Source of the DNA: TPA_inf: Saccharomyces
Lineage: Eukaryota
Direction: 5' to 3'
Length of the DNA stretch: 64,000 nt
Assembly: GCA_000146045.2 (NCBI GenBank)
Contig: BK006942.2
Location: 128,001-192,000 of the forward strand
Shown here: positions 12,613 to 49,506 of the stretch, one piece after another
How positions within the stretch are numbered: the stretch's first letter is position 1
How the letters are laid out: each line of letters starts with the position of its first letter
Position numbers and translations under genes: made by a program
The notes under the pieces: generated by a model
The model's input: the letters and a program-made list of their open reading frames with translations, nothing else
Told to the model about the DNA's origin: nothing
Databases searched by the model: none

Positions 12613-13569
12613 TTACTCATCCTGTTCTTTCCCCTCCAGCATGTGCTCGAGATAAGTCGAAGGTGTAGGTTTTCTTTTGGACTGTACGACCAACAAATTA
12701 CCCTTACTATGGTTACGATTTACGCTACCATCACTTTCTGGTGAATTAAGCAGCTTTCGACTTGGTGAAGATGCAATTTTTGCGGGTTTCCTTATGTCTT
12801 CACCCACCTCCTTTTCATTACCGTTATCGAGCGACGATGCGGATGATGAAGAGATTGTAGACACCAGAGAATTTGTAGATACATTATCACTTGTCATAAT
12901 CACAGGTTTCTGTAATAATCTAGGGCTTTCTTGGTAAAGTTTAGATAGCCTTGTTTTGTATAAGATATCACCTGTTGGTGAAATGAAAAGTGAATTTCTG
13001 TTGGATTCGGATGCAAGAGAGAATAGCGGCCTTTCGAAATTACTTAAGAATGGTTTTTCATTATTAGTATGAGATACAAGTGCATCTTTCACCGATTCAT
13101 CCTTATTTCCGGGACTAATATCGGACTCGCTGATATGGACCTGATCTTGGAAATTTTCTTTGGCGGGATAATCCATATATGGGGAATCGCCGTAAAACTG
13201 GGTATGTTGTGTGGAAAACATCTTTGATTCGTAGTCCTGAACACTTCTGGTCAACCTATGCGAAGAATAAGTTGTTATTACCCACCATAGCAATATTGCC
13301 AAAAAAATCACTCCCGCGATTCCCCCCACTACAATGAAAACTGTTCCATTAGGCATATCCCCGGAATCCAAAATATAAGGATTACCATTTCTAGAGGGAG
13401 GAGTAATACTTGGTATAATAGAAGAGGATGTAGAGTTGGACAAAAGTGGTAAAGAAGATGAAGAAGAAGCAACAGATGTTATCGTACTACTTGAACTGGC
13501 AGTTGTTGTCGAAGAAGTGGAAGTGGTTAATTTTGGAAGGCCTCTCTTGGCAATGGTGATTACTGTCAT
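12613..13569 (-). CDS. PRM5: Pheromone-regulated membrane protein Prm5
   Basis: 318-aa ORF, Ser-rich N-terminus, single TM segment (IVVGGIAGVIFLAILLWWVIT); position between RHO3 and HIS5. Confidence 0.8.
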   Translation of the reverse strand: MTVITIAKRGLPKLTTSTSSTTTASSSSTITSVASSSSSLPLLSNSTSSSIIPSITPPSRNGNPYILDSGDMPNGTVFIVVGGIAGVIFLAILLWWVITTYSSHRLTRSVQDYESKMFSTQHTQFYGDSPYMDYPAKENFQDQVHISESDISPGNKDESVKDALVSHTNNEKPFLSNFERPLFSLASESNRNSLFISPTGDILYKTRLSKLYQESPRLLQKPVIMTSDNVSTNSLVSTISSSSASSLDNGNEKEVGEDIRKPAKIASSPSRKLLNSPESDGSVNRNHSKGNLLVVQSKRKPTPSTYLEHMLEGKEQDE

Positions 13570-14725
13570 TCTTGCGTTTTGAGTGTCAATTTATTCTATT
13601 TTCAACGACCTTTTAAAGTAATAATGAGTGCTCTTGACTTAACTCTAATGCTATAACTGTTTCTTTGCACCGATGCGTTCCTTTGAATGATCTCAGGTAA
13701 TATATTAAATATTTTTCAAATGTCTTTACCACATTCTTCAGTAATACATTTTCTCTCTAATTTTTCATTTTCCATTTTCCATTTTATTTTTAGAACGTGT
13801 GACAAAGTTGTTTCAAGAACAATATAGAATTCTTAGCCAAAAAGAGAAAGCAAGAAAATTAAACTTTATTTGTCTAAGAAAAGCCCGAACAGCGAAACCG
13901 ATCACTTCCCAGGATCGGAAGGTGTCACTTTGCGCCTTTTGCTCCGCCGCTCTTTCGTCGGCGTTCTTTGCTTCCCTGGGCGCTGTCGCATTAAGAATAT
14001 CATGTATATTCAGGAACAAAGGTAAATCACCTATAGACGTGCGCCGCAATAACCCTGCTAAGAAAATTCATTTAAAAAACTTACCTGCCAGTCTTGTTGT
14101 TTACTCAAACCACATACTATGATTATACTTTTGTCAGAGTTATGCGATGCCGCTTAAGCTTTGATTAAGAATTTTTTTCTCTTCTTTAAGTATGCCGTGC
14201 ACTTTTCGCTTCTCCAAAATATGACCCAATACTCATTTGGTTATTTTTACCAAGTAATCGATCAGATAGCATTAATAGCGTGAATATTTGATGGAATAAC
14301 ATATTAGAAAAGCTTTAGCTGGCAATTCTTGTACTGTCTTTCGCCGAAACCTGTTTGATGACTACTTCATCAATTTTTTTTTTTTCTGCCGCATTCCAAA
14401 GGTCATAACTTTGCAAAAATAAAGGGTAAATGGTTAAAAATTGTTATCATAAATAAGGTGACCGGTTATATTGAGACCTTTCCTGGACAGTAACTAATAC
14501 AGAAGCCATTGGTAATGCAATAATTTATTTGATCATGTGACTACGATCCGGGTGAGACTATTCAAAAAAGGAGTCAAGCATTGAAATAATTAATGACTAA
14601 TCCGAAGTTAATTGTTAGGAGTCAATTGTTTTTTCCAATGAATGGAATCTGAGATGACTAAACTACCAATTTTCAATAGTTCATGGTATAGTGACGTAGT
14701 TAGTGCTTTTTTTTCTTGGATCTGT

Positions 14726-14732
14726 TGACTCA
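14726..14732 (+). promoter_or_regulatory. Gcn4 response element (TGACTCA) in HIS5 promoter
   Basis: Exact TGACTCA about 200 bp upstream of HIS5 ATG; HIS5 is a known general-amino-acid-control target. Confidence 0.55.
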
Positions 14733-14927
14733 CTTCAATTGATGTTTCTTACCCTGACATGACATACTTGATATTTTATCTCTCACGTTATATAACTTGA
14801 AAAGGATGCACACAGTTCTGTTCAATATACCCTCCAATATGTAAAAACAGTTTTTCCATTGATTACTCTTAATTTGTTTCCTGCTAAACCAGCAGTACGT
14901 GTGTGCCGTATATATTAAAATTACACT

Positions 14928-16085
14928 ATGGTTTTTGATTTGAAAAGAATTGTTAGACCAAAAATTTATAACTTGGAACCTTATCGCTGTGCAAGAGATG
15001 ATTTCACCGAGGGTATATTGCTAGACGCCAATGAAAATGCCCATGGACCTACTCCAGTTGAATTGAGCAAGACCAATTTACATCGTTACCCGGATCCTCA
15101 CCAATTGGAATTCAAGACCGCAATGACGAAATACAGGAACAAAACAAGCAGTTATGCCAATGACCCAGAGGTAAAACCTTTAACTGCTGACAATCTGTGC
15201 CTAGGTGTGGGATCTGATGAGAGTATTGATGCTATTATTAGAGCATGCTGTGTTCCCGGGAAAGAAAAGATTCTGGTTCTTCCACCAACATATTCTATGT
15301 ACTCTGTTTGTGCAAACATTAATGATATAGAAGTCGTCCAATGTCCTTTAACTGTTTCCGACGGTTCTTTTCAAATGGATACCGAAGCTGTATTAACCAT
15401 TTTGAAAAACGACTCGCTAATTAAGTTGATGTTCGTTACTTCACCAGGTAATCCAACCGGAGCCAAAATTAAGACCAGTTTAATCGAAAAGGTCTTACAG
15501 AATTGGGACAATGGGTTAGTCGTTGTTGATGAAGCTTACGTAGATTTTTGTGGTGGCTCTACAGCTCCACTAGTCACCAAGTATCCTAACTTGGTTACTT
15601 TGCAAACTCTATCCAAGTCATTCGGTTTAGCCGGGATTAGGTTGGGTATGACATATGCAACAGCAGAGTTGGCCAGAATTTTAAATGCAATGAAGGCGCC
15701 TTATAATATTTCCTCCCTAGCCTCTGAATATGCACTAAAAGCTGTTCAAGACAGTAATCTAAAGAAGATGGAAGCCACTTCGAAAATAATCAATGAAGAG
15801 AAAATGCGCCTCTTAAAGGAATTAACTGCTTTGGATTACGTTGATGACCAATATGTTGGTGGATTAGATGCTAATTTTCTTTTAATACGGATCAACGGGG
15901 GTGACAATGTCTTGGCAAAGAAGTTATATTACCAATTGGCTACTCAATCTGGGGTTGTCGTCAGATTTAGAGGTAACGAATTAGGCTGTTCCGGATGTTT
16001 GAGAATTACCGTTGGAACCCATGAGGAGAACACACATTTGATAAAGTACTTCAAGGAGACGTTATATAAGCTGGCCAATGAATAA
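14928..16085 (+). CDS. HIS5: Histidinol-phosphate aminotransferase
   Basis: 385-aa ORF; class II aminotransferase PLP-lysine region (LQTLSKSFGLAGIRLG); Gcn4 TGACTCA site upstream. Confidence 0.93.
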   Translation: MVFDLKRIVRPKIYNLEPYRCARDDFTEGILLDANENAHGPTPVELSKTNLHRYPDPHQLEFKTAMTKYRNKTSSYANDPEVKPLTADNLCLGVGSDESIDAIIRACCVPGKEKILVLPPTYSMYSVCANINDIEVVQCPLTVSDGSFQMDTEAVLTILKNDSLIKLMFVTSPGNPTGAKIKTSLIEKVLQNWDNGLVVVDEAYVDFCGGSTAPLVTKYPNLVTLQTLSKSFGLAGIRLGMTYATAELARILNAMKAPYNISSLASEYALKAVQDSNLKKMEATSKIINEEKMRLLKELTALDYVDDQYVGGLDANFLLIRINGGDNVLAKKLYYQLATQSGVVVRFRGNELGCSGCLRITVGTHEENTHLIKYFKETLYKLANE

Positions 16086-16116
16086 ATAGATTAATTTAAA
16101 CAGTATATGTACAGTT

Positions 16117-16150
16117 TTATATATATATATATATATATATACATATATAA
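16117..16150. repeat. (TA)12 dinucleotide repeat downstream of HIS5
   Basis: tatatatatatatatatatatatatacatatata. Confidence 0.9.
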
Positions 16151-16326
16151 AGAAACCTGTGCGTTTTTTGTATTTTCAAATACATTTAGTTTTGGCGCCA
16201 CTTCTATAAAAGGTCTCATGATATTGTTACAATATCAATTTTTCTTCGTTTCTCATGCCCTGTTTCTATGATAGAGGATGAATTTATTATTAACGGCACT
16301 AACAACGTACATATAGCTAAATATCA

Positions 16327-19300
16327 CTATTTTGCCATGTTCAAATTTTTGAAGAAATCACCAATTTGCTTTTTCGTATTCATGGCCAACCCAACTTCTA
16401 CTACTTTAAATCCTTTCATGTCCTTTGTTATTGAAGAGGATGCATCGAACGACGAAGCCTTTTTACCTTTCTCCTCCAATTGTAACCTACTCACTTGCTC
16501 ACGCAATAATTTGATTTCTTTTAGTAAACCGTCACGTGCAAGAGATTCTTTAGCTAGTTTTGCCACTAATGGATTATCGTCCAATCTCTTATTCTTTACA
16601 GTGAACAATTTTAAAATGTTCAGCAACTCTTCAGTATGATTAATTTTGGCGGACACATCGAATAGCTTTTGACGTAATGTCTTTTGCATTCTAAATTGAT
16701 GCGTGCTGAGATCTTTAACGTATCCACTCGAAGCATCATCAAAATGCATTAAAAACAGATACTCCTCTTTTGCATTGGCTACATCTTCAGTTATTTGTGC
16801 AATATCTTTCCTGACATAATCTGTAACTTTTTCCTTCAGGTCTTGAATGTTAGCATTTGTTATTTGCATTTGTTCACACTTGATATTATTCTGAATATTT
16901 AATAGAATTTCAGCCTCTGGTATTCTCCAAGTATACAGATTATTGATAGACCGCACTGTACGCTTCACCAAAGGGATGCTCGATTGATCAGTAAAAAAAG
17001 TATCCATATTCCGGATGTTTTCCATCAGAACAGTAAACTCAGCTTCGACCGTCTGAAATGTACTCTCAATCAACCTTAACGTAGAATTTTGTGAAACGAA
17101 AGGAATATTTGATACTTTTGCACTTGTGTAATATTCTTTCAATTGCTTTGGTTTGCATTGCTCTGCTAAATAATTTTCGTCACCTTCAAATGTTTGAACA
17201 GAAAAATTACATGTTTCAACAGGCTCAGTTTGCAGACCATTGTCGACTGCTTCCTTCTTAACAGTTTGTGTACTGTTGTGTTTCACGGGTATGGCATCCG
17301 TTTGAACTTCATTTTCCTTGGAACTTTCTGAAAGGTCTGTCTGTATGCCAGATTCAGCATAATTGTCTTCTAATGAAGTTTGTACATCAAAATCAGCGGA
17401 AGCGCTCACTTCACGTGCTTTAAAAGCTTCTCCACCATGAGGTAGCTCATCAGTATTAATATCTTCCAGTTTATCGTAGGACTCAGATATACTTTCATCC
17501 CGGTCACTGTTGAGTGACATGTTATCATCTGATTCTTTAACTTCACTGCTTTGTCTACTGTCTTTTTCGCTCGCGTCCTCTTCTGAAGATTGGTGGTCTT
17601 CGAATTGCTTTATTGCCATATTTGAATCAAAATTCTCTTTTTCATTGTCTTTTTTCAATGCTATTCCATCTCCTTGGACACCATGATTTGGTTGACCGCT
17701 CCTTTCATTATTCTTCGAAGTTTCATTCATTTCTTTAGACTTGTTATCGTGATCAACCACAGCATGTTGACTATATTTTGGGTCTGTTTCGCTTTTTTCA
17801 TGATTGTTCACGTCCTGTGACTTTGGAATTTCTTCGTTTGCTGTGGTATCAAAAGCACTTTCAGAAGTCCTTACAGATATTTCACTTCCTGATACATAAC
17901 CATCTTTTGGGTCATCGTTATGATCCTTTTTAGAACTTTCTCCAGTTCTTTCTTCTTTCGCTGGTAGAAACGGATTCTCCACACTCTTCAAGGTTATGGG
18001 GCCCTTTTCACTAGTTTCTTTAGTATCAGCTTCTTCCATTGGTGAAACCGTAGATGTATTACTTTTATTCATTGTGGAGTTACCAAACGAAAAAGCAGGT
18101 GTTGTAGAGCTTGGTTTGGTAATATTTGTTGCAAATGCTGAAAACGGCGATTCGGATTTTGCTTTGACATGATTTCCAAATACAGGATTTTTTAAACCAG
18201 CCATGTCAATATTGGCACTTTTTTTTATAGTTTCAGTTAGCTTGCCTATGGGGGATTTTTGCGCTTCCTCCTCGACAACTTCACCATCTTCATCCGAGGG
18301 AGTTTCCGGTAATCTAGTAGAAGATGTTTGCTCAACCGTAGAATCTGTCAAATCATTACCGCTTACGTTGGGACCATTGCTTTCGTGTTCTTCATTATCG
18401 TCATTGATTTCACTGGTAGAGCCCTTACTTAAAGATCCATTTTCAGTATCATCTTTTGTGAAGGAACTGAATGGTGATTTGTTTCCTAACTGTGAAGAGA
18501 AAGGTGAAGCCTGAGTACCGAATTTAAAAGTTGTATCGGAACCAACAGATTCCAGAGCCTTTGAAAATCCAGATCCAAAGGAAGAACTCCCAAAATCAAA
18601 GGCATTGGTCTTTGGTTTCGTAGAGGTGTTAGGTTTCGTACCAAAAGGTGTCGAAGAAGAGTCTACATCACTCTTAGACTCATCTTCACTTTGATCGCCA
18701 GAAGATGGGAAAGGTGACGTTGAATCTACCTCCTTTGGGCTGTCAACTGTAGGTTTTGAAATAGTAAAGTTTGATCCGAAAAGTTCATTGTTGGCGGGTG
18801 CAAAAGATGATGAACCAAATGCAGCCTTTCCAAATATGGATCCAGAGTTAGTTTCGTTACTTGATGCAGTTCCGAATGCAGATGTACCAAAAGAGGGCTT
18901 ACCAAAGGCAGATCCGGAAGCAGGCGGCTCAGCAGATGAATTTCCAGAGCCAAAGGAAGGAGTACCAAAAGAGGGCTTACCAAATGCAGATCCGGAGGCA
19001 GGCGGCTCAACAGATGAATTTCCAGAGCCAAAGGAAGGAGTACCAAAAGAGGGCTTACCAAAGGCAGATCCGGAGGCAGGCGATTCAACAGATGACTTTC
19101 CAGAGCCAAAGGAGGGAGCACCAAAAGATGGCTTGCCAAAGGCATATTCTGATGTTGACGGTTCTTTGGCAATAGCTCCGAACGCGGGTTTGCCGAATAC
19201 TGGCTTAGCAGAAGCAGGATCTGTTGCGTCTTGTTCACTGGACGCTACACCAGTACTGGTAGATGAGACTGATGGCAAGTCAATTTTAAATGCGGATGAT

Positions 19301-29384: not shown

Positions 29385-32165
29385 TTATTTGCTAATTCTG
29401 GCTTTCATGATTTGTAAGAATTCTCTGTAACTTTCGTTATTCAAAATCTTATCCTCCACTAAGGTGCTAGAAGCCCATAGTCTTAGCGTTGCAACTTCCC
29501 TAGCAGATGCATGGTTAACGGGCTCGCTCAAAGAGGCACCCCTAACAATATACAATGATTGGTAAGTGATGACATCATCATGGTTTCTCAATTGGTTGAT
29601 AATGTTTCTTACTCTTTGATTGAATTCAGAATTTTCAACAACAGGTATTTCCTGTTTGCCAATTGGAATGTCAAAGATATCCTGTGTTCCAAACACATCG
29701 AATACTAGCGCTGGTACAGCGTCACCACCCATCCACAAAAACAATTCGTTACCATTATCTATCAAGTATAGACCGTATCTTTCAAACAACGAAGAGGTAG
29801 CATTGATTGGTTGAGGCAAAACAATTGTGCCAGTAGCTTCACCATCTTCAGTTTGCACTGGTAACCCAGCCTCATCAGCCATATCATGCAGCGAATAAAC
29901 ATCAGGGTAGATGTTTTTGATTAGATATTTCAAAGGTAATGATTCTAAGTTGTTCAAGGCCGAGGCGCGATGGTCACTTGGGACAATACCAGATCTAAAT
30001 GCCATATGCTTAGTTAAAGAATGCATTAACAATGGGAACATTCTCAAATTGGCACATAACCTCAATGGGGCCCCCCCTGCAGTGTTGGACACCACTATTT
30101 CCTTCTTGTACGTGGCTAAGATATCTTGCACGGATTTGTTGATCAATACTCTTGCATCGTCCAAACTGGAATTCAATGCTTTCTCCACCGCCTTCGAGTT
30201 GTAAAACGACGCTATAGCTAATTGGTCAGCAGATGCGTAGACTTCTGCCAACGATTCCGTGGTTGGCATAGCCAATGTTATAATTCTTATTCTACGTTGA
30301 CTATTATTCAGAGATAAAAGTACCGCTACTTGAACATAACAATAGTCAGCCATAATGGATTCATCAACGTTAACTTCGAATAAGTATGATTGATCTCTTG
30401 GCATGGTGGAAAATGCACATAAATCAGATGATCTATTGAAGAAGTGACCATAGAATCTACTCATTCTCAAACCTGTGGAACCACGGGCTCTCATTACGGT
30501 TTCCATACAGAAATCCATGGAAATGTGCTTGGCAAACTCAGTGGAAAATTTGACAATATCATTTGGGTTCTTGCCTGAAAAACCAGGATAGAAATGCGTT
30601 TGACCAGCAGTGAAACGACTCAAATTCGATAGTGATGCAACGTCCATATAATCTTCAGAAGCCAAAAATAAATCGACAGTAATCTGTACTTTAGAACAAT
30701 CGATGGTGAAATTCTTATAAAATGAGTCTTGACAGGAAAGTAGTTGTGCAGTTTCCTTGGATGTATTAACAACACCACTTTCATTTCTCCTTTGTAATTT
30801 TCCTATGCCTAAGTTGGGCAAAGTACCTGACACAACAATTATTTTACCACCAACGCCACCAATTAAATGATAAGCGGATTTCAAAGCGGGGCCCAGTGCG
30901 AAATTTGTGATTAAATTAGATTGGAAGATTTGAGGAATCTTGGTCAATAAAGTTTCAATGTTTTGTCTGCAGGCCTTTAAGGACACAACCATAGAGTTTG
31001 GTCTGGGCAAGAAAGGCTCTTCCAGGTCGGCAATATCCATCATGTTGATTTGATCGGCGGACTCTTCATTGTTTTCAGAATCCAATGGGATTTTAAAGTA
31101 GTGAATGGCGTTGTCTACACATAAGATGGAAATTCTGGTTCTTTCATCATGGTTTGGAATGGAATCAAGATTTTGCAAAAGGGTGTTGATGGTAGTGGCC
31201 AGTAACCCACTCTTGATAGAGGACTGGGAGACATCGATCAGGAAACAGTAAGTGGCTGGAGGTGGTTGTCTTAGAGTATATTCCTTTGGGGCCATATATT
31301 CCATCACAGCACATTTGATTTCATTTCTGTCGTATCTACTCTTTGGGTCGTTTGGATCGCTCTGGTCCATTTGCATAGGAACGTCATTGGCCAGACGACA
31401 AAAGTTACATCTCCATCTTCTGCCTTGCTCGATAAAAGTGACAAAAGGGTTCATGTAAGAACGACAACGACGACAACGGACAATAAGTCCATCTTCATTC
31501 AATGGAGGCGGGTCGATATCGTCGTACAAGTGTTGGTATGGTCTGATAACAAGCCCAAATGGAAGTTTAGACTTCTTCAGCAGGGAGCTGTTCTTAGGAA
31601 CGGCGTTCAAGGTCGACCTGATATAATCTGGAGACGCATTGGACAATTCAGAAGGAACTAACATCCTTTCTGGAGGAATAACCAACGGTGGGGGAGGCAA
31701 GGTCAGATCGGTAATTGGAGGAGGCAATTCCGTCAACAGATCGATTGGATACAACTGGTTCATGGGCCTCATGTTTTGGCCCATTGCGGCGCTAGGTTGG
31801 CCATACGCAGGCGCTGCCATTGGTTGTTGCTGTTGCTGCAAAGGTGTGCCCATTTGCACGGGAACCTGTGGCTGCATATAAGCGTTAGGATCGACTAGCG
31901 GTACGTTGTGCAGATGCATATCGTTCATGGAAGTGGTGGCCTGATCAATTTGCTGGTGTAACTGTTCTTGAGCAGGGGTTAGGAATTGTTGCTGCCCCAT
32001 GGAAGGGACTGCACCCTGTGGCGGCATTCCCATCTGACCATAGCTCATTCCAGCTGCAGCAGGATCCTGCGGAGGCATGAATTGTGCTGGCTGTTGTAGA
32101 GGGGTGGCATTTTGTCCATACTGGAGCTGAGCTTGTGGGTAAACACGTTTCTTGTGATGAGACAT
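29385..32165 (-). CDS. SEC24: COPII coat cargo-adaptor Sec24
   Basis: 926-aa ORF; Q/P-rich N-terminus, zinc finger CRRCRSYMNPF...CNFC, trunk/helical/gelsolin regions. Confidence 0.93.
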   Translation of the reverse strand: MSHHKKRVYPQAQLQYGQNATPLQQPAQFMPPQDPAAAGMSYGQMGMPPQGAVPSMGQQQFLTPAQEQLHQQIDQATTSMNDMHLHNVPLVDPNAYMQPQVPVQMGTPLQQQQQPMAAPAYGQPSAAMGQNMRPMNQLYPIDLLTELPPPITDLTLPPPPLVIPPERMLVPSELSNASPDYIRSTLNAVPKNSSLLKKSKLPFGLVIRPYQHLYDDIDPPPLNEDGLIVRCRRCRSYMNPFVTFIEQGRRWRCNFCRLANDVPMQMDQSDPNDPKSRYDRNEIKCAVMEYMAPKEYTLRQPPPATYCFLIDVSQSSIKSGLLATTINTLLQNLDSIPNHDERTRISILCVDNAIHYFKIPLDSENNEESADQINMMDIADLEEPFLPRPNSMVVSLKACRQNIETLLTKIPQIFQSNLITNFALGPALKSAYHLIGGVGGKIIVVSGTLPNLGIGKLQRRNESGVVNTSKETAQLLSCQDSFYKNFTIDCSKVQITVDLFLASEDYMDVASLSNLSRFTAGQTHFYPGFSGKNPNDIVKFSTEFAKHISMDFCMETVMRARGSTGLRMSRFYGHFFNRSSDLCAFSTMPRDQSYLFEVNVDESIMADYCYVQVAVLLSLNNSQRRIRIITLAMPTTESLAEVYASADQLAIASFYNSKAVEKALNSSLDDARVLINKSVQDILATYKKEIVVSNTAGGAPLRLCANLRMFPLLMHSLTKHMAFRSGIVPSDHRASALNNLESLPLKYLIKNIYPDVYSLHDMADEAGLPVQTEDGEATGTIVLPQPINATSSLFERYGLYLIDNGNELFLWMGGDAVPALVFDVFGTQDIFDIPIGKQEIPVVENSEFNQRVRNIINQLRNHDDVITYQSLYIVRGASLSEPVNHASAREVATLRLWASSTLVEDKILNNESYREFLQIMKARISK

Positions 32166-43750: not shown

Positions 43751-45028
43751 ATGAGTGGCTCTACAGAATCTAAAAAACAACCAAGAAGAAGATTTATTGG
43801 GAGAAAATCTGGCAACAGTAATAATGACAAATTAACTACAGTGGCTGAAAATGGCAACGAAATAATCCACAAGCAAAAGAGTAGAATCGCCCTAGGTAGG
43901 AGTGTTAATCATGTGCCAGAAGATATATTGAATGACAAAGAGTTGAATGAAGCCATCAAATTATTGCCCTCTAACTACAACTTTGAAATCCACAAAACTG
44001 TGTGGAATATCAGGAAATATAATGCTAAAAGAATAGCCCTACAGATGCCTGAAGGTTTGCTGATTTACTCATTGATTATAAGTGACATTTTGGAACAGTT
44101 CTGTGGTGTTGAAACTCTAGTAATGGGGGATGTGTCTTATGGTGCATGCTGTATTGATGATTTTACTGCTAGGGCATTGGATTGCGATTTTATTGTGCAT
44201 TACGCTCATTCGTGTTTAGTTCCTATTGACGTTACAAAGATTAAAGTACTATATGTCTTTGTTACTATAAATATTCAAGAAGATCATATTATCAAAACGC
44301 TGCAGAAGAATTTTCCTAAGGGATCTAGAATCGCTACATTTGGTACCATTCAGTTTAATCCTGCGGTACACAGCGTCAGAGATAAACTGCTTAACGATGA
44401 AGAACACATGCTGTATATTATTCCACCACAAATCAAGCCTCTATCGAGGGGTGAAGTATTGGGGTGTACTTCTGAAAGATTAGATAAAGAACAATACGAT
44501 GCCATGGTATTCATCGGTGATGGTAGATTTCATTTGGAGTCTGCAATGATACATAATCCGGAAATTCCTGCATTCAAGTATGACCCATACAACAGAAAGT
44601 TCACTAGAGAAGGATACGATCAAAAGCAACTCGTGGAAGTTAGAGCAGAGGCCATTGAAGTCGCTCGGAAGGGTAAAGTTTTTGGTCTGATCTTAGGTGC
44701 ATTAGGTAGACAAGGTAATTTAAACACTGTAAAAAACTTGGAAAAAAACCTGATCGCAGCAGGTAAAACCGTGGTGAAAATTATTCTAAGTGAAGTTTTT
44801 CCCCAAAAGCTCGCAATGTTCGATCAAATTGATGTTTTTGTTCAGGTCGCATGTCCTAGACTGTCCATCGATTGGGGTTATGCCTTCAATAAACCACTAT
44901 TAACACCATATGAGGCTAGTGTCTTACTAAAGAAAGATGTCATGTTCAGCGAAAAATATTATCCAATGGATTATTACGAAGCTAAAGGATACGGGCGTGG
45001 GGAAACTCCGAAACATGCGATTGAATAG
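43751..45028 (+). CDS. DPH1: Diphthamide biosynthesis protein Dph1 (2-(3-amino-3-carboxypropyl)histidine synthase)
   Basis: ORF track begins 43730, but recognised Dph1 N-terminus is MSGSTESKKQPRRRF at 43751 (425 aa); Dph1/Dph2 radical-SAM-like 4Fe-4S family. Confidence 0.85.
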   Translation: MSGSTESKKQPRRRFIGRKSGNSNNDKLTTVAENGNEIIHKQKSRIALGRSVNHVPEDILNDKELNEAIKLLPSNYNFEIHKTVWNIRKYNAKRIALQMPEGLLIYSLIISDILEQFCGVETLVMGDVSYGACCIDDFTARALDCDFIVHYAHSCLVPIDVTKIKVLYVFVTINIQEDHIIKTLQKNFPKGSRIATFGTIQFNPAVHSVRDKLLNDEEHMLYIIPPQIKPLSRGEVLGCTSERLDKEQYDAMVFIGDGRFHLESAMIHNPEIPAFKYDPYNRKFTREGYDQKQLVEVRAEAIEVARKGKVFGLILGALGRQGNLNTVKNLEKNLIAAGKTVVKIILSEVFPQKLAMFDQIDVFVQVACPRLSIDWGYAFNKPLLTPYEASVLLKKDVMFSEKYYPMDYYEAKGYGRGETPKHAIE

Positions 45029-45187
45029 TTTAAATAGTTTTTGTTGTCACTTGTCTTCCTGTTACATATGTATAAATAGTTAGTATCATATTCTTCGGAG
45101 CATCTTTTCTATTGTTTAAACGTTTTTGACGGCTTGCAGGCGAAACTAAATTGTCTAAAATTCAAAACAATGCCTTCTAACTTGATA

Positions 45188-45310
45188 TCACTGCTGGTCA
45201 AGCCTATTTTTATTCTGGTTTCTCAGGCAAACCCAAATGATATTGTCAAATTTTTCACTGAGTTTGCCAAGCATATTTCCATGGACTTTTGTATGGAAAC
45301 CGTGATGAGA
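45188..45310 (+). pseudogene. Relic fragment of SEC24 coding sequence (~120 nt, ~90% identity to 30481..30614 reverse complement)
   Basis: cactgctggtcaa...caggcaaacccaaatgatattgtcaaatttttcactgagtttgccaagcatatttccatggacttttgtatggaaaccgtgatgaga matches SEC24 codons for ...GKNPNDIVKFSTEFAKHISMDFCMETVMR with 5 substitutions and a 2-nt indel over the best 85 nt. Confidence 0.7.
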
Positions 45311-45364
45311 AATCCGGGATTTCTCATCGAGGAAAGAAGTGACTCGAGCCTCTTAAGGCTTAGA

Positions 45365-45592
45365 TTAAACTTTTTTCTTTTTATCGCTGCGTATAAGCAA
45401 TACACCTAAAACAGAACCAGTTAAAGTAAACCCGATCAACAGTAAGAAGATGGGCAGGAAAATTGCAACATTGCTAGAAATGGGGAAGAGTAAACTCACA
45501 ACTGGATTGGAGTTCTCGATCTCGAAGATAGGCAGGAGCGACCATATGACATAATAAGTAAAAAGAAGGCAAATAATTACAAAACGGTTCAT
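45365..45592 (-). CDS. Small two-TM membrane protein, DPM2-like (YIL102C-A)
   Basis: 75-aa ORF with two hydrophobic helices and C-terminal KKKKV; recognised as YIL102C-A. Confidence 0.7.
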   Translation of the reverse strand: MNRFVIICLLFTYYVIWSLLPIFEIENSNPVVSLLFPISSNVAIFLPIFLLLIGFTLTGSVLGVLLIRSDKKKKV

Positions 45593-46379
45593 GAAACTAA
45601 ACAGACGTTTACTATGCCCAACCGGTGACTATTCACATTTTTGAGCTAGTATTGCATTTAGAGTACACGCAGTCATCAACAGTTTCTTTGTATCTCTTTC
45701 AAATATATTCCTTTACACGGGAATGCTAGCGGAAATGAATGTAAGGCGGAAAAGCTCTCCGTGCGAAACTATTCTTTTAGACACTGAATAAAGTTGTAGC
45801 CTCATTCCATAATCTGGGTCAGATTTTATGAAAATGTAGTTATTTCTGTTAGTTGCTGGGTTCTACGATATTCTGCTGCGTGGTTTAGCTTTCATACTTG
45901 ATTTTTACTCCTTCATCACTCCATATAGGTTGGATATGGCTGAATCTGTTTTTATCGAGGCACCCTTATGAACATAAACAACAGTATCCCGTCTAAGAAA
46001 TACTTTCGCTACAATGACTTCGAAAATTAGGAGTTGACTGTGGCTTCAGGTCATCACATTGAGTTCAGTATATTCCATCCAAACGTCGAGGCAGGTTGCC
46101 GTTGAAGATGTGCTGGCCCGCTTACAGGCCCATGTTTAACAGCAATTGCACCACATGCATGTCACATATGCATGTCACATATTAGCCCTAATTGTCTAGT
46201 GGAATTTTCGCAGTAAGAATCAAATGTGTTTAAAAGTCATAGCATTGATGAACAGCTTACTCGTATCTCTCTATTTGATTTGGACAATAGCTTGAGCAAA
46301 CGTTGGCAAAACAGCTGCTCTGAATAATGGTCAGCAATTAAATTTGCTTTTTTTGCGTACGGCTGTTCAGATATACTAT

Positions 46380-46520
46380 TGTTGGAATAATAATCAATCG
46401 TCTATTGACTAATGTTTTCATACGTATTATTACTGCCTTCATGAAATAAGTAACCCTAAATTTTTATCACAACATTCTAATGTTCTTCATTTTCTGTAAA
46501 GAAAGAGCAGGACTGTGGCA
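46380..46520 (+). mobile_element. Degenerate solo Ty LTR remnant (delta/tau-like), 5' end TGTTGGAATA
   Basis: Begins with the canonical LTR terminus TGTTGGAATA followed by partial similarity to Ty1/Ty4 LTR 5' region; lies ~550 bp upstream of a tRNA gene, the usual Ty1-4 target zone; end point uncertain. Confidence 0.35.
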
Positions 46521-46581
46521 GAATAGTACCATTTTCATCAGCAAATGTGAGGCTATGCCATTATTTGCGAATGCTATGAAC

Positions 46582-46887
46582 CTACTGCGTTGCATTCTCC
46601 AAGGTTCCCGCTGGGTGGGTCGCCACTAACTCTTCCGTGTGGCCGTCTATTGCTGATGCATTCAAACCATAGTCACCTGCGATAGGGTTAGTTGTGTAAG
46701 AGGTAAAACAGTGACCAGGTGTTAATTCTTCCCAGTTCATCAACAAGCTTGCTGAACCATTGCTCATTATAGTTGTTATACTGCAGGAATATTTCATCTC
46801 GATATCTACTTCTTCCAGAAAAGAATTTTTTAAACAATAATAGACCTCGAATCGCTTCAATTTTTTGAACTTTTCCACCTTTAGCAT
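46582..46887 (-). CDS. Small ORF of unknown function (YIL102C)
   Basis: 101-aa ORF at the expected position between YIL102C-A and tRNA-Thr; no recognisable domain; could be spurious. Confidence 0.45.
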   Translation of the reverse strand: MLKVEKFKKLKRFEVYYCLKNSFLEEVDIEMKYSCSITTIMSNGSASLLMNWEELTPGHCFTSYTTNPIAGDYGLNASAIDGHTEELVATHPAGTLENATQ

Positions 46888-47030
46888 CTAACTTGGTTCT
46901 TTAATTACGATAATTCAGGATATGCGCAAGCCACCTACAGATTATAGAAGCAGTCGAGTACGAATCACTGTGACCGTCATCCTAGATAAATAGTATAGCT
47001 TGATGAAGAGTACTGAACCAACAAGTACGA

Positions 47031-47103
47031 GCTTCTATGGCCAAGTTGGTAAGGCGCCACACTAGTAATGTGGAGATCATCGGTTCAAATCCGATTGGAA
47101 GCA
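47031..47103 (+). tRNA. tRNA-Thr (anticodon AGU)
   Basis: 73-nt GCTTCTATGGCCAAGTTGGTAAGGCGCCACACTAGTAATGTGGAGATCATCGGTTCAAATCCGATTGGAAGCA; A-box TGGCCAAGTTGG, B-box GGTTCAAATCC, anticodon loop cACTAGTAAtg, followed by T8 Pol III terminator. Confidence 0.95.
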
Positions 47104-47175
47104 ATTTTTTTCTTCGGCACGTCATACACCTTGTAATGAGTGTACTAATTCTCTCTTCAAAAAGATCATTGTATG

Positions 47176-47186
47176 TTTTATGTTTT
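47176..47186. promoter_or_regulatory. 11/11 ARS consensus sequence match (TTTTATGTTTT) beside tRNA-Thr
   Basis: Matches WTTTAYRTTTW exactly; AT-rich flank; origins are frequently tRNA-adjacent; many perfect ACS matches in the genome are not origins. Confidence 0.3.
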
Positions 47187-47306
47187 GTCTGGAAAAACAT
47201 ATAGTACGGATATTTTTGAAAAACTTTGAAATAATATGTAAATTATGTAAAAAAATTAAAGAACCATTATAAAAGAATATTACCAAAAATGTAACAGATG
47301 ACATTT

Positions 47307-49250
47307 TTATTGTTTTGAGTTTGTTTTAAATTTGAAATTGTTCAGTGAATTGTTCGCCCTTGGCGAAAAAGAGGTGTCCATATTGGTATTTGTATTATGA
47401 GCTGGTCGTTGGTTTTGTTGCTTATAAACTTCGCTAGCATATTTCAAAAAATGATAGTGATCATCACCATAAGGTTGAGGGAAAGTGGGAGGAGCAGGCG
47501 CGATTGGTGAAGAGGGGACGTTGTAGTGTCTTGGAGACTGGTACTGAGAAGGAACTGGGTGAATGTGGTCGTAAGTATAGTTTAGCTGCCGCTGTGGCGA
47601 CGAGAGCTGGTTTGGTGGGGGTAAAGAGTATCTTTGCTGTGGTATATAGATATTTCCCGGATATGAATACCGGTGACCGTGGGTGTTGTAGAAGGATGCT
47701 AGGTTTGACAAAATTTGCACCGTTGGATCTCTTGGCCCTATTGGAGAAGAAGTTTGAGAGGTGTATGTGGACGACTTTTGCCTTTTGCTGTTTTTTTTAA
47801 TGAAGTTCTTGTCATTTGAGGAAAGGCCCAAGTTTTCTACAAATGAGTCGAATGAGGGCAAGGCGTCCTCAATAACAAGTTTCTGCGCTTTGGAATGGGA
47901 CATGGAAGTAGATCTTTGTCTTGGCCTGGGTCTGGGCTTCTGCCTAGGTCTTGCCACTGCAGTAGACGTAAAATTGGTACTTGTATTAGCAGCAGCAGTA
48001 GCAGCAGTAGCAGCACCTGCACCAGTGGTAGAACTAGCAAATGTAACGTTTTGATGAGCCAAATACCACGATTCGCAATCTTTGGGGAAATCTGGACCAA
48101 AAATAGGCACCAGAAAGTATCTGATCGGAAAACAAAACCGCAGGCATAGCAACCTTGAGATTTCCATCGGCAACCAAGTACCCTGAATTTTGATGTAACC
48201 ACCTCTTATTCTTTTCGTAAAATTTGCCGGATTTAAGTTGGGCAAGTCTATTTGGTCAGGACCAAGTTCATTGATCAGGAAGTCTTTGTAAGACTGGCAA
48301 ATAAGGTCCCGCAGTTCGGGCTTGATGTTGTTCCAATGAAAATCGATGTAATTGTTTGCCTGCGTTGAAGAAGTAGATGAAGAAGACGCATTGGCGTCCA
48401 AGAAGGTAGACCCTGTGGATGTCCGTCTCTTTGGCGGCGAAGAGGTGGAGGACGACAACAGTACGCTTGAAGATTCCTCAGAAGTGAACGAACTGTGATT
48501 GTAAAAGCAAAAAGATAGAATTTTCTCGAATTCAGCCTTGCAAAAGAACTGCTGTTGGCTAGTGGAAACGCTGTCACCTCTGGGCAAGTTTATAAGCCCC
48601 TTCATAACATCCTGATACAGCCGCCAGATGCCCGTCATGAACACATAGCCGGAGTCATGCGACCATATTACGCAGTTGTTAGGGTTGATGAGCTTGTCAT
48701 TGATCAGATTATGGTCCATTTTGGTCAACTTGAACTGCTGATTCTTTGTCAGCGAGGAGGTGGCATTTTCACGCGATGCTGTTGACAGAGCCTTCTTTTC
48801 TTGCTTGGTGGGTGATGCTGAGACTGGTGTTTTGTTAGACCGGGAAGGTAGTATGATCTTACCCATCAGAATATTTTTATCGTGCAGATGCAAGGCGGAG
48901 TGAGGAGTGGCGGAGCTAGCGAGCTGCGATAGCAACGTTTGTTCGTGGACTAGGCTCTGAATTGTTTGTAGGTTGGGAAACTGGTACTCGAAGCAGTTCA
49001 GAACGTTCTGCGCCGCCGCCTCTTCCCCGTTCCCTGCGTCCCGAGCACTGATAATGAAGTTTGGATGTGTGAACTGCGCAGCAATGGAGGATTTATAGTT
49101 AACCTTTCTAATATTGAGTCCGGCGCTGAAACTGGCCGGCGGCGAGTCCCTATCCAGTACGCTGACGAGGTAGAGACGCTGATAGTCGTCCAGGGGGTTG
49201 TCCGTTAAGTGTACCGTGTCACTGTTAATGCTAAAAGCGGGATATTTCAT
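47307..49250 (-). CDS. XBP1: Stress-induced transcriptional repressor Xbp1 (Swi4/Mbp1-like DNA-binding domain)
   Basis: 647-aa ORF; APSES-type DNA-binding domain; recognised; synteny. Confidence 0.88.
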   Translation of the reverse strand: MKYPAFSINSDTVHLTDNPLDDYQRLYLVSVLDRDSPPASFSAGLNIRKVNYKSSIAAQFTHPNFIISARDAGNGEEAAAQNVLNCFEYQFPNLQTIQSLVHEQTLLSQLASSATPHSALHLHDKNILMGKIILPSRSNKTPVSASPTKQEKKALSTASRENATSSLTKNQQFKLTKMDHNLINDKLINPNNCVIWSHDSGYVFMTGIWRLYQDVMKGLINLPRGDSVSTSQQQFFCKAEFEKILSFCFYNHSSFTSEESSSVLLSSSTSSPPKRRTSTGSTFLDANASSSSTSSTQANNYIDFHWNNIKPELRDLICQSYKDFLINELGPDQIDLPNLNPANFTKRIRGGYIKIQGTWLPMEISRLLCLRFCFPIRYFLVPIFGPDFPKDCESWYLAHQNVTFASSTTGAGAATAATAAANTSTNFTSTAVARPRQKPRPRPRQRSTSMSHSKAQKLVIEDALPSFDSFVENLGLSSNDKNFIKKNSKRQKSSTYTSQTSSPIGPRDPTVQILSNLASFYNTHGHRYSYPGNIYIPQQRYSLPPPNQLSSPQRQLNYTYDHIHPVPSQYQSPRHYNVPSSPIAPAPPTFPQPYGDDHYHFLKYASEVYKQQNQRPAHNTNTNMDTSFSPRANNSLNNFKFKTNSKQ

Positions 49251-49354: not shown

Positions 49355-49506
49355 TAATAGATATATATATGTATGTATATATATGTTGAAGTGTGTACAC
49401 ACGTACACGCACAAGCTACAGACGCCACGCGGCCCGGCATTCATATATGTACATACATTTATGCACATATATATATATATATATATGTATATGTAAATGT
49501 ATATAT
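49355..49506. repeat. (TA)n/(TATG)n/(CA) microsatellite cluster in XBP1-SGA1 intergenic region
   Basis: atatatatatgtatgtatatatatg ... catatatatatatatatatgtatatgtaaatgtatatatac. Confidence 0.9.

What the first reader, a model, noticed from the sequence alone, without database searches (positions are those of the whole stretch)
45188..45330. Orphan SEC24 coding fragment between DPH1 and YIL102C-A
About 120 nt here match the reverse complement of SEC24 at 30481..30614, which lies 15 kb away on the opposite strand. The best 85 nt carry 5 substitutions and one 2-nt indel, roughly 93% identity. That part encodes SEC24 residues ...NPNDIVKFSTEFAKHISMDFCMETVMR. The flanks (tcactgctggtcaa...) also align, at lower identity. 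Chance cannot produce this; it is a duplicated gene fragment. No SEC24-like frame is kept on either side, so it is a relic rather than a gene. This pattern is typical of ectopic gene conversion, template switching during break repair, or a decayed segmental duplication. The ORF-track ORF 45134..45409 reads through it and probably only exists because of it. I do not remember any annotated feature at this position.
Basis: seen in the sequence. Interest (0 to 1): 0.55.

Follow-up and report, generated by a model that had tools for sequence, protein, structure and literature searches.

The report
SEC24 fragment pasted between two genes
A 123-base piece of the essential SEC24 gene was copied into the spacer between DPH1 and YIL102C-A in the S. 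cerevisiae lineage, most likely as filler during repair of a DNA break, and it now decays as a harmless relic.

Summary
Window 45188..45310 (+) matches SEC24 30613..30489 (-) at 112/125 positions with one 2-nt gap (E = 3e-43), and the window holds no third copy.

The fragment corresponds to Sec24 residues 518-559. It carries a frameshift and four amino-acid changes in a segment that is invariant in three species.

It is specific to S. cerevisiae:
- It is present in all 11 S. cerevisiae sequences examined, including a very divergent one.
- It is absent from the orthologous spacer of S. paradoxus, S. mikatae and S. uvarum.
- S. paradoxus and S. mikatae keep a different sequence there, which is homologous between those two species and so is ancestral.

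The fragment replaced about 55-88 nt of the old spacer. Apparent junction microhomology is only 1-2 nt. The right junction is a perfect 25-nt palindrome (45304..45328), and one arm of it is SEC24-derived.

Shared derived sites and a neutral-rate calibration place the copy after the S. paradoxus split, roughly midway along the S. cerevisiae branch.

The best reading is a fixed templated insertion made during double-strand-break repair, with a fold-back or quasi-palindrome signature, now evolving neutrally. The 79-aa ORF across it is broken by a common +T allele. This is an ordinary gene relic and a neat natural example of a known process. Interest is low to moderate.

The parts
45188..45310 (+). 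SEC24-derived fragment of 123 nt. The + strand is the SEC24 sense strand and corresponds to Sec24 residues 518-559. It carries a 2-nt deletion after 45229. Fragment-specific substitutions lie at 45202, 45205, 45210, 45214, 45255, 45286 and 45289.
   Evidence: blastn gives E = 3e-43. Alignment to SEC24 of four species and polarisation of the changes. phmmer against PDB sequences finds only Sec24, 37/41 identical, E = 3e-20.
30489..30613 (-). Donor segment inside the intact SEC24 gene (29385..32165, -), CDS nt 1553-1677. It covers the end of the Sec23/24 trunk domain and the start of the beta-sandwich domain.
   Evidence: Pfam domain limits are trunk 301-548 and beta-sandwich 554-636. The donor is retained and its peptide is conserved in all species examined.
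45304..45328 (.). Perfect 25-nt palindrome, GATGAGAAATCC-G-GGATTTCTCATC, at the right junction. The first 7 nt of the left arm are SEC24-derived. The right arm ends exactly where orthology to S. paradoxus resumes (45329).
   Evidence: Self reverse-complement hit. It is the only non-(TA)n perfect palindrome with 12-nt arms in the 64 kb. As a DNA hairpin it scores -10.8 kcal/mol, z = -4.3. It is perfect in 10 of 11 S. cerevisiae sequences; one divergent strain has 45315 C>T.
45311..45328 (+). 18-nt tail between the SEC24 homology and the resumed ancestral spacer. It is either de novo fold-back synthesis or an ancestral quasi-palindrome corrected against the SEC24-derived arm.
   Evidence: It has no SEC24 match. 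It matches collinear S. paradoxus GACATTCGGCGATTTTCCAT weakly: 15/19, p = 0.044 in a restricted test, though the same alignment against the whole spacer was not significant (p = 0.76).
45029..45187 (+). Ancestral left part of the spacer, the region 3' of DPH1. It is orthologous to S. paradoxus, S. mikatae and S. uvarum.
   Evidence: Multiple and pairwise alignments.
45329..45364 (+). Ancestral right part of the spacer, directly 3' of the YIL102C-A stop codon on the - strand. It is orthologous to S. paradoxus and S. mikatae.
45170..45409 (+). 79-aa ATG ORF (91 aa from TTG at 45134) that reads through the fragment. It is judged spurious.
   Evidence: No NCBI accession or NCBI name is attached to it in the collection, where it appears only as automated JGI, Logan and ENA calls. 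A +T allele in the T-run 45276-45278 gives a 57-aa product on 175 contigs, against 189 contigs for the 79-aa form. It has no Pfam hit. It is absent in other species.
45365..45592 (-). YIL102C-A, a DPM2-like gene of 75 aa. Its 3' untranslated region would run antisense through the fragment.
   Evidence: ORF. Pfam DPM2, E = 4.6e-8. Source names. PMC7728079 (listed). The extent of the UTR is inferred, not measured.
43751..45028 (+). DPH1, the convergent neighbour. Its stop codon lies 160 nt upstream of the fragment.

Best explanation
This is a non-functional, lineage-specific templated insertion, that is, a gene relic.

The event happened after S. cerevisiae separated from S. paradoxus, roughly midway along that branch and before present-day S. 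cerevisiae lineages diverged. A break, or a stalled repair synthesis, occurred in the 3' spacer between the convergent genes DPH1 and YIL102C-A. It was repaired by an error-prone route that copied 123 nt from the middle of SEC24, which lies 14.6 kb away on the same chromosome in inverted orientation. The copy was pasted in place of about 55-88 nt of the original spacer. Only 1-2 nt of microhomology is apparent at each junction.

At the right junction the nascent strand switched to its own complement, either by fold-back or by quasi-palindrome correction. This produced a perfect 12+1+12-nt palindrome whose left arm begins with SEC24 sequence.

The donor gene was left intact (copy-paste). Since then the insert has drifted neutrally: a 2-nt deletion, AT-biased substitutions and indel polymorphism.

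Shown here: the homology, the absence from sister species, the ancestral state, the relative dating, the loss of coding constraint, and the palindrome. Inferred: that a double-strand break started it, which polymerase and end-joining route were used, and that the template was DNA rather than RNA.
For: (1) Homology is 112/125, E = 3e-43, with no other copy in the window.

(2) The orthologous spacers of S. paradoxus (286 nt), S. mikatae (288 nt) and S. uvarum (284 nt) lack the fragment. The S. cerevisiae spacer is 336 nt.

(3) The 88-nt S. paradoxus segment at that place is homologous to S. mikatae (p = 0.0005) but not to S. cerevisiae (p = 0.76). So the other species keep the ancestral state and S. 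cerevisiae replaced it.

(4) The S. paradoxus, S. mikatae and S. uvarum spacers show no SEC24 similarity. Their scores against the whole CDS are at chance level, and p = 0.31, 0.31 and 0.97 against the very segment.

(5) The fragment is present in 11 of 11 S. cerevisiae sequences. One of these is only 98.3-98.5% identical to the window over about 21 kb.

(6) Phylogenetic placement:
- The fragment shares the derived cer+par states at CDS 1599, 1617, 1623 and 1644.
- It shares S. cerevisiae-only states at CDS 1668 and 1671 (and possibly 1569) and no S. paradoxus-specific state.
- Identity of the window's fragment falls in the expected order: S. cerevisiae SEC24 91-93.5%, S. paradoxus 90.2%, S. 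mikatae 87.8%, S. uvarum 82.9%. Within the divergent strain, fragment and SEC24 are 95.1% identical.

(7) Clock: there are 7 fragment-specific substitutions in 123 nt (5.7%). The S. cerevisiae-branch divergence at 4-fold sites is 12.2% (163/1339).

(8) Coding constraint is lost. There is a frameshift and 4 non-synonymous changes in a 41-aa peptide that is identical in three species.

(9) The palindrome sits exactly at the junction and is unique in the window.

(10) Laboratory precedent in PMC11724301: templated insertions at yeast breaks are mostly about 50-300 bp, copy-paste, with 0-20 nt of microhomology. They are often accompanied by 5-34-bp fold-back inversions.
Against: - No break was observed; the mechanism is read from the scar alone.
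- Junction microhomologies are inferred using S. paradoxus as a proxy for the ancestor. About 10-20% divergence blurs the breakpoints by several bases.
- The left junction could sit up to about 15 nt further left. The window's TCTAACTTGA resembles SEC24 TCGAATTTGA as well as it resembles S. paradoxus.
- The 18-nt tail may be ancestral spacer rather than new synthesis (p = 0.044). That would change the size of the deletion and the way the palindrome arose.
- SEC24 reads as one uninterrupted ORF, so a cDNA intermediate cannot be excluded.
- The whole S288C genome could not be searched, so a second donor elsewhere is excluded only within the window and by the species and allele identity ranking.
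Confidence: 0.7

Rival explanations
1. RNA-mediated origin. A piece of SEC24 mRNA was reverse-transcribed, for example by a Ty reverse transcriptase, and the cDNA fragment was captured at a chromosomal break.
For: cDNA capture at yeast breaks is an established source of insertions (PMC11724301 introduction). SEC24 reads as one uninterrupted ORF in the window, so the usual intron test is unavailable. The size (123 nt) fits captured fragments.
Against: The fragment is internal to the CDS (nt 1553-1677 of 2781). It has no 3' end bias, no poly(A) tract and no flanking Ty sequence. The donor lies only 14.6 kb away on the same chromosome. That is expected for DNA template switching but would be a coincidence for a diffusible cDNA.
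Confidence: 0.15
2. Ancient relic refreshed by gene conversion. All Saccharomyces species carry an old, decayed SEC24 relic here, and in S. cerevisiae ectopic gene conversion from SEC24 renewed it.
For: By eye, a few short patches in other species resemble SEC24 near the junctions. S. mikatae TTCAATGCTGATGAAAGCAAT matches SEC24 TTCACTGCTGGTCAAACCCAT at 16/21. S. paradoxus GTGGAGTTCCACAC resembles SEC24 GTGGTTCCACAG.
Against: Formal tests are negative. The spacers of S. paradoxus, S. mikatae and S. uvarum score at or below shuffled controls against the whole SEC24 CDS. Against the exact segment they give p = 0.31, 0.31 and 0.97. The patches are at most candidate microhomologies.
Confidence: 0.04
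3. Remnant of a larger segmental duplication of the SEC24 region, or of a complete extra gene copy, that decayed and was deleted down to 123 nt.
For: Gene relics of this kind exist in yeast intergenic regions: 124 were reported by Lafontaine et al. 2004, as cited in PMC9661399.
Against: Both flanks are orthologous to S. paradoxus right up to the junctions. The spacer is only 50 nt longer than in sister species. SEC24 similarity stops abruptly at both ends. The neighbouring genes are collinear in all four species. A large duplication followed by two near-exact deletions is far less parsimonious.
Confidence: 0.04
4. The insert is functional. Either it acts as an antisense SEC24 segment, or a new polyadenylation context, within the YIL102C-A 3' UTR, or the 79-aa ORF encodes a micro-protein.
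For: The - strand of the fragment is complementary to SEC24 mRNA. It starts 54 nt downstream of the YIL102C-A stop codon. Fragment-specific C>T changes create GAATAAAAATAG on the - strand (45209-45220). The insert is fixed in the species.
Against: - Divergence fits neutrality.
- Differences between strains inside the fragment (2 in 123 nt, plus 1 in the tail) are no rarer than in the surrounding 21 kb, which differs by 1.5-1.7%.
- A +T indel is common and destroys the ORF.
- The palindrome is broken in one lineage.
- There is no Rfam or Pfam match.
- Sister species manage without the insert.
Confidence: 0.05

Closest known systems
Templated insertions at double-strand breaks in yeast (Break-Ins assays of the Ira laboratory; PMC11724301, PMC12214859)
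   Same: Copy-paste of a short stretch of nuclear DNA (typically about 50-300 bp) from a distant site into a break. The donor is retained, junction microhomology is 0-20 nt, and short fold-back inverted duplications (5-34 bp) are frequently associated. Here the insert is 123 nt, the donor is intact, apparent microhomology is 1-2 nt, and there is a 12-nt-arm inverted duplication at one junction.
   Different: Those events are laboratory products at an induced HO cut. This one is a natural event, fixed in a species and roughly datable. It is accompanied by loss of about 55-88 nt of target sequence. The initiating break and the enzymes involved are unknown.
Gene relics in S. cerevisiae intergenic regions (Lafontaine, Fischer, Talla & Dujon 2004, Gene 335:1; cited in PMC9661399 and PMC5499181)
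   Same: An intergenic stretch with residual similarity to a functional gene and no intact reading frame.
   Different: Many catalogued relics are leftovers of whole duplicated or lost genes. This one was never more than a 123-nt internal piece, and it is lineage-specific rather than a degraded ancestral gene. I could not read the 2004 list, so I cannot say whether this relic is in it. The 2010 pseudogene supplement (PMC2876123) has no SEC24 entry.
Quasi-palindrome and short template-switch mutations during repair synthesis (bioRxiv 10.1101/2023.08.09.552703, PMC3820800, PMC8604942)
   Same: Several clustered changes make the two arms of an inverted repeat perfectly complementary. The S. paradoxus orthologue is an imperfect palindrome (GGACATTCG-G-CGATTTTCC, 7/9 pairs). 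S. cerevisiae has perfect 12-nt arms.
   Different: Here one arm includes freshly inserted foreign (SEC24) sequence. So the switch either accompanied or followed the insertion. A de novo fold-back cannot be told apart from correction of a pre-existing quasi-palindrome.
Nuclear insertions of mitochondrial DNA and Ty cDNA captured at yeast breaks (summarised in the introduction of PMC11724301)
   Same: Short filler DNA fixed in intergenic regions by end joining.
   Different: The donor is a nuclear single-copy essential gene on the same chromosome arm, not organelle DNA or a retroelement.

Membership tests
Gene relic / pseudogene fragment | Intergenic DNA with statistically significant similarity to the coding sequence of a functional gene | tested here: met
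   112/125 identical, E = 3e-43. Translated, it is 37/41 identical to Sec24 residues 519-559, E = 3e-20.
Gene relic / pseudogene fragment | Parent reading frame disabled or truncated | tested here: met
   A 2-nt deletion after 45229. The homology covers only codons 518-559 of 926. Four non-synonymous changes fall in a peptide that is invariant in three species.
Gene relic / pseudogene fragment | Evolves without selective constraint | tested here: met
   5.7% fragment-specific change against a 12.2% neutral branch length. Strain differences are as frequent as in the surrounding DNA. A +T indel is common. The sample is small, so weak constraint cannot be excluded.
Templated insertion at a DNA break (copy-paste) | Insert absent from the orthologous site of sister lineages, which keep the uninterrupted ancestral sequence | tested here: met
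   Absent in S. paradoxus, S. mikatae and S. uvarum. The S. paradoxus segment is homologous to S. mikatae, p = 0.0005.
Templated insertion at a DNA break (copy-paste) | Donor locus retained intact | tested here: met
   SEC24 is a full 926-aa ORF whose protein is identical to the S288C entry.
Templated insertion at a DNA break (copy-paste) | Short or no microhomology (0-20 nt) at the junctions, not long homology | tested here: inconclusive
   With S. paradoxus as proxy, the left junction shares T (45188) and the right shares GA (45309-45310). Divergence since the event leaves the breakpoints uncertain by several bases.
Templated insertion at a DNA break (copy-paste) | Arises at a double-strand break through end joining and/or Pol delta synthesis | not testable with these tools
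   This needs genetics. Here it is inferred only from the scar: insertion plus deletion plus fold-back.
Fold-back inversion / quasi-palindrome template switch | An inverted duplicate of the sequence immediately adjacent, giving a perfect palindrome at the junction | tested here: met
   GATGAGAAATCC-G-GGATTTCTCATC at 45304-45328. It is unique among non-(TA)n palindromes in the 64 kb.
Fold-back inversion / quasi-palindrome template switch | An imperfect precursor palindrome in the ancestor (for the quasi-palindrome-correction variant) | tested here: inconclusive
   S. paradoxus has GGACATTCG-G-CGATTTTCC (7/9 pairs) in a collinear position. The tail-to-S. paradoxus match has p = 0.044 in the restricted test only.
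Processed pseudogene (retrocopy) | Poly(A) tract, 3' end bias and target-site duplication | tested here: not met
   The piece is internal (CDS nt 1553-1677). There is no A-tract at either end, and target sequence was deleted rather than duplicated.
Processed pseudogene (retrocopy) | Loss of introns relative to the parent | not testable with these tools
   SEC24 reads as one uninterrupted ORF in the window.
Ectopic gene conversion between pre-existing repeats | Recipient site already homologous to the donor before the event | tested here: not met
   No significant SEC24 similarity in the spacers of S. paradoxus, S. mikatae or S. uvarum.
Relic of a SEC24 paralogue (SFB2/ISS1 or SFB3/LST1) | Closer to the paralogue than to SEC24 | not tested
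Iss1p is 55% and Lst1p 23% identical to Sec24p at protein level (PMC2174359), whereas the fragment is 90% identical in protein and 91-95% in DNA to SEC24. So a paralogue source is very unlikely.
Protein-coding gene / de novo micro-ORF | ORF kept intact within the species and in relatives | tested here: not met
   The 79-aa form is on 189 contigs and the frameshifted 57-aa form on 175 contigs. The ORF is absent from other species. It has no Pfam hit.

The most novel reading that the evidence does not exclude
The 3' UTR of YIL102C-A, the DPM2-like regulator of dolichyl-phosphate-mannose synthase, runs antisense through the insert. S. cerevisiae alone would then make an mRNA with about 120 nt of 91-95% complementarity to the coding region of SEC24 mRNA. 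That would create a species-specific mRNA-mRNA duplex in trans, coupling ER glycosylation supply to COPII export. Alternatively, the insert may have rewired 3' end formation of the convergent DPH1/YIL102C-A pair.
Probability: 0.04. Interest if true: 0.6.

Novelty: new member of a known kind. Interest (0 to 1): 0.25.

Why it matters
Templated insertions and fold-back inversions at DNA breaks are mostly known from induced breaks in laboratory yeast and from cancer genomes. This locus is a clean natural example: the donor, the ancestral target, both junctions and the relative age can all be read. It shows that such repair scars can become fixed in a compact genome and persist for a large part of a species' history.

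It also has practical uses. It warns annotators and searchers for de novo genes that the 79/91-aa ORF at this position is a by-product. It could also serve as a diagnostic marker for the S. cerevisiae lineage. It does not reveal a new kind of biological system.

Tried and rejected
(1) Ancient relic in all species, refreshed by gene conversion. A few junction-adjacent patches suggested this by eye. Smith-Waterman scores against shuffled controls rejected it, both for the whole CDS and for the segment.

(2) A protein search with the 42-aa frame-corrected translation, meant to look for a better donor among 5.8 billion proteins. It returned a single candidate, another allele of the local ORF, because the query was too short for the word index. 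It was uninformative about donors. The PDB sequence search found only Sec24.

(3) XBP1-anchored look-ups with 6-kb flanks for S. paradoxus and S. kudriavzevii did not reach the spacer. In S. paradoxus a Ty3-like element sits between XBP1 and YIL102C-A. I repeated the S. paradoxus look-up with a 10-kb flank and then used PFK26 as an anchor that spans both SEC24 and the spacer. The S. kudriavzevii spacer was never obtained.

I got round it through the cluster table.

(5) Rfam scan of 44800..47400 found only the tRNA-Thr and nothing in the spacer.

(6) Literature. The supplement of Lafontaine & Dujon 2010 has no SEC24/YIL109C entry. PMC9661399 holds no readable supplement. The 2004 relic list is not in the library.

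(7) Recent gene conversion between the fragment and SEC24 within S. cerevisiae, as an explanation for the three SEC24 sites where the divergent strain carries the fragment state. I rejected it because intervening fragment-specific sites (CDS 1653, 1656) were not co-transferred. Also, 3 differences in 123 nt is not significantly above the gene-wide 26 in 2781.

Full report
**Setting.** The window is S. cerevisiae chromosome IX-left. Its Sec24 and Pfk26 proteins are identical to the entries named for S288C. SEC24 lies at 29385..32165 (-), DPH1 at 43751..45028 (+), YIL102C-A at 45365..45592 (-), and XBP1 at 47307..49250 (-). YIL102C-A is a 75-aa DPM2-like protein (Pfam DPM2, E = 4.6e-8; PMC7728079). 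The finding sits in the 336-nt spacer between the convergent genes DPH1 and YIL102C-A.

**Observation.**
- blastn of the spacer against the whole window gives one significant non-self hit. Window 45188..45310 (+) matches 30613..30489 (-) at 112/125 positions with a single 2-nt gap, E = 3e-43. All other hits have E >= 0.7.
- The + strand of the fragment is the SEC24 sense strand. It corresponds to residues 518-559, the last 30 residues of the trunk domain (301-548) and the first few of the beta-sandwich (554-636).
- With the frame corrected, the translation matches only Sec24 among PDB sequences (37/41, E = 3e-20).
- SEC24 similarity stops abruptly at both ends.

Positions 45304..45328 form a perfect palindrome, GATGAGAAATCC-G-GGATTTCTCATC.
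- Its first seven bases are the last bases of the SEC24 homology.
- Its last base is the last base before orthology with S. paradoxus resumes.
- It is the only perfect palindrome with 12-nt arms in the 64 kb apart from two (TA)n tracts.
- As single-stranded DNA it folds at -10.8 kcal/mol (z = -4.3).

**Comparative evidence.** I fetched the orthologous region from three species.
- S. mikatae IFO1815: loci L001 and L009.
- S. uvarum: loci L003 and L011.
- S. paradoxus CP020250: loci L008, L010 and L012.

Gene order is the same in all. The spacer is 286 nt (S. paradoxus), 288 nt (S. mikatae) and 284 nt (S. uvarum), against 336 nt in S. cerevisiae. None of them contains the SEC24 fragment.

The S. 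cerevisiae spacer aligns with S. paradoxus from the DPH1 stop to about 45187, and again from 45329 to the YIL102C-A stop. In between, S. paradoxus has 88 nt of unrelated sequence. That 88-nt segment is significantly homologous to the collinear part of the S. mikatae spacer (p = 0.0005). It is marginally similar to S. uvarum (p = 0.07) and not similar to S. cerevisiae (p = 0.76). So the sister species hold the ancestral state, and S. cerevisiae replaced it.

**Is there an older relic underneath?** A few patches in other species looked SEC24-like by eye. Formal tests were negative:
- Local alignment scores of the three foreign spacers against their own complete SEC24 CDS are at or below shuffled controls.
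- Against just the relevant 260-nt segment they give p = 0.31, 0.31 and 0.97.

I therefore reject gene conversion of a pre-existing relic.

**Spread within S. cerevisiae.** A PFK26-anchored look-up returned an assembly (LR813559.2) that is only 98.3-98.5% identical to the window over about 21 kb. That is very divergent for this species, and its accession series suggests a Taiwanese isolate, though I did not verify this. It carries the fragment. Nine further contigs from NCBI, ENA and Logan assemblies also carry it. So it is present in 11 of 11 sequences.

Variation inside the insert:
- 45210 T/C and 45289 T/C. The divergent strain keeps the SEC24 state at both.
- 45315 C/T. The T breaks the palindrome in the divergent strain. 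If the tail is homologous to the S. paradoxus spacer, S. paradoxus has C at that position, so T would be the derived state.
- A +T in the T-run 45276-45278, present in the nine contigs.

**Dating.**
- At CDS positions 1599, 1617, 1623 and 1644, the fragment shares the state of S. cerevisiae and S. paradoxus against S. mikatae and S. uvarum. The copy therefore post-dates the S. mikatae split.
- The fragment shares C at 1668 with both S. cerevisiae alleles (S. paradoxus and S. mikatae have T).
- It shares G at 1671 with the divergent S. cerevisiae allele (other species have T or C).
- It shares no S. paradoxus-specific state (1578, 1638).
- Identity of the window's fragment to SEC24 ranks as expected: the divergent S. 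cerevisiae allele 93.5%, S288C 91.1%, S. paradoxus 90.2%, S. mikatae 87.8%, S. uvarum 82.9%. Within the divergent strain the two copies are 95.1% identical.
- Three of the eleven S288C differences (CDS 1569, 1641, 1671) are changes in S288C-lineage SEC24, not in the fragment.

For calibration, 4-fold degenerate sites of six neighbouring genes give an S. cerevisiae-branch divergence of 0.122 (163/1339) and an S. paradoxus-branch divergence of 0.082. The fragment has 7 lineage-specific substitutions in 123 nt (5.7%). Under neutrality that places the copy roughly midway along the S. cerevisiae branch. The Poisson uncertainty is wide, about 20-95% of the branch.

**Decay.** Five of the seven fragment-specific changes are C>T, and four change the amino acid (T>A, H>Y, P>S, S>F). 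They fall in a 41-residue peptide that is identical in S. cerevisiae, S. paradoxus and S. mikatae and has one change in S. uvarum. Together with the 2-nt deletion, this shows coding constraint is gone.

The ATG ORF 45170..45409 (79 aa) exists in the protein collection only as automated JGI, Logan and ENA calls, on 189 contigs. One source names it, clearly wrongly, 'ribosomal protein L10'. The +T allele gives a 57-aa product on 175 contigs. There is no Pfam or Rfam match. The ORF is a by-product.

**Mechanism.** The scar has five elements:
- a 123-nt copy of a sequence 14.6 kb away on the same chromosome, in inverted orientation;
- an intact donor;
- loss of about 55-88 nt of target;
- junction microhomology of about 1 nt (T at 45188) and 2 nt (GA at 45309-45310), judged against S. 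paradoxus;
- a short inverted duplication at one junction.

This matches what is recovered at induced breaks in yeast. Templated insertions there are mostly about 50-300 bp, copy-paste, with 0-20 nt of microhomology. They arise by microhomology-primed, switch-prone synthesis or by end-joining capture, and are often accompanied by 5-34-bp fold-back inversions (PMC11724301; PMC12214859).

Two versions of the right junction remain open:
- (a) The 18-nt tail is new fold-back synthesis.
- (b) The tail descends from an ancestral quasi-palindrome. S. paradoxus has GGACATTCG-G-CGATTTTCC (7/9 pairs). The tail-to-S. paradoxus match is 15/19, p = 0.044 in the restricted test, while the same alignment scored against the whole spacer was not significant (p = 0.76). 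Under this version the quasi-palindrome was corrected against the new SEC24-derived arm.

In either version the right arm, TCTCATC, complements SEC24-derived GATGAGA. So the perfect palindrome arose with or after the insertion, by copying from the complementary strand.

A cDNA intermediate cannot be excluded, because SEC24 has no intron to test. The internal position of the fragment, the lack of an A-tract and the nearby same-chromosome donor all make it less likely.

**Function.** I found no sign of one. The - strand of the insert would be antisense to SEC24 mRNA if the YIL102C-A 3' UTR extends more than 54 nt. This is plausible but unmeasured. The substitution rate, the polymorphism and the broken palindrome in one lineage all look neutral. 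I keep a trans antisense role as the most novel reading, at about 4%.

**Comparison with known things.** This is a gene relic in the sense of Lafontaine et al. 2004, who reported 124 relics (cited in PMC9661399 and PMC5499181). I could not check whether this one is on that list. The 2010 pseudogene supplement has no SEC24 entry.

It is not a relic of SFB2/ISS1 or SFB3/LST1, whose proteins are only 55% and 23% identical to Sec24p (PMC2174359). I did not align this segment to them directly. It fails the tests for a processed pseudogene and for gene conversion between pre-existing repeats.

**Verdict.**
- Observation: confirmed.
- Novelty: a new member of a known kind.
- Interest: low to moderate.

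Noticed in passing
window 45055..45098 (core TACATATGTA at 45064..45073): The block CTTCCTGTTACATATGTATAAATAGTTAGTATCATATTC just 3' of DPH1 is almost invariant in S. cerevisiae, S. paradoxus, S. mikatae and S. uvarum, while the rest of the spacer diverges. Its core, TACATATGTA, is itself palindromic. It resembles a yeast UAUAUA-type 3' end efficiency element that could serve both convergent genes. In the divergent S. cerevisiae strain, four of its spacer differences cluster here (45058, 45062, 45077, 45079).
   Followed up: no
window 47031..47103 (+); L008 12428..12500 and 12823..17509: A tRNA-Thr(AGT) gene lies between YIL102C and XBP1. In S. paradoxus CP020250 a Ty3-like element sits next to the orthologous tRNA. 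It has a 1260-aa ORF with Ty3 protease, reverse transcriptase, RNase H and integrase domains. It stretches the XBP1 to YIL102C-A distance from 1.7 kb to 7.8 kb. S. kudriavzevii ZP591 also has extra DNA there, which I did not characterise.
   Followed up: partly
window 45276..45278: There is a common +T length polymorphism in the T-run of the fragment (T3 in the window and in SEC24, T4 in nine other S. cerevisiae contigs). It changes which ORF automated gene callers report: 79 aa, 57 aa or 105 aa.
   Followed up: yes
window 45170..45409 (protein P0224): One public source (JGI/IMG) names the automated ORF call across the fragment 'ribosomal protein L10'. That is evidently an annotation error. 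The ORF has no Pfam hit.
   Followed up: partly
window 45094..45120 versus L008 (S. paradoxus spacer): Besides the SEC24 replacement, the S. cerevisiae spacer lacks about 16-20 nt that are present in S. paradoxus and S. mikatae (GAAGCAAGAGTAAGTT-like). It also shows other small indels in the left half. So this spacer has been remodelled more than once.
   Followed up: no
window 16118..16141 and 49465..49488: Two (TA)n microsatellites, (TA)12 and ACA(TA)9TGT. They are the only other 12-nt-arm perfect palindromes in the window.
   Followed up: no
window 30489..30613 (SEC24 CDS 1569, 1641, 1671) versus L013: Within the donor segment, the window's SEC24 carries three synonymous differences from a divergent S. 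cerevisiae allele. At all three the divergent allele has the fragment's state. That is 3 in 123 nt, against 26 in 2781 nt gene-wide. The excess is not significant, and the pattern does not fit a conversion tract, but it inflates the apparent age of the fragment if only S288C is used.
   Followed up: yes
L008 19930..20163 / L010 11574..11807: The YIL102C-A orthologue is 77 aa in S. paradoxus and in some S. cerevisiae strains, against 75 aa in the window. The 3' end of this small gene varies in length next to the remodelled spacer.
   Followed up: no
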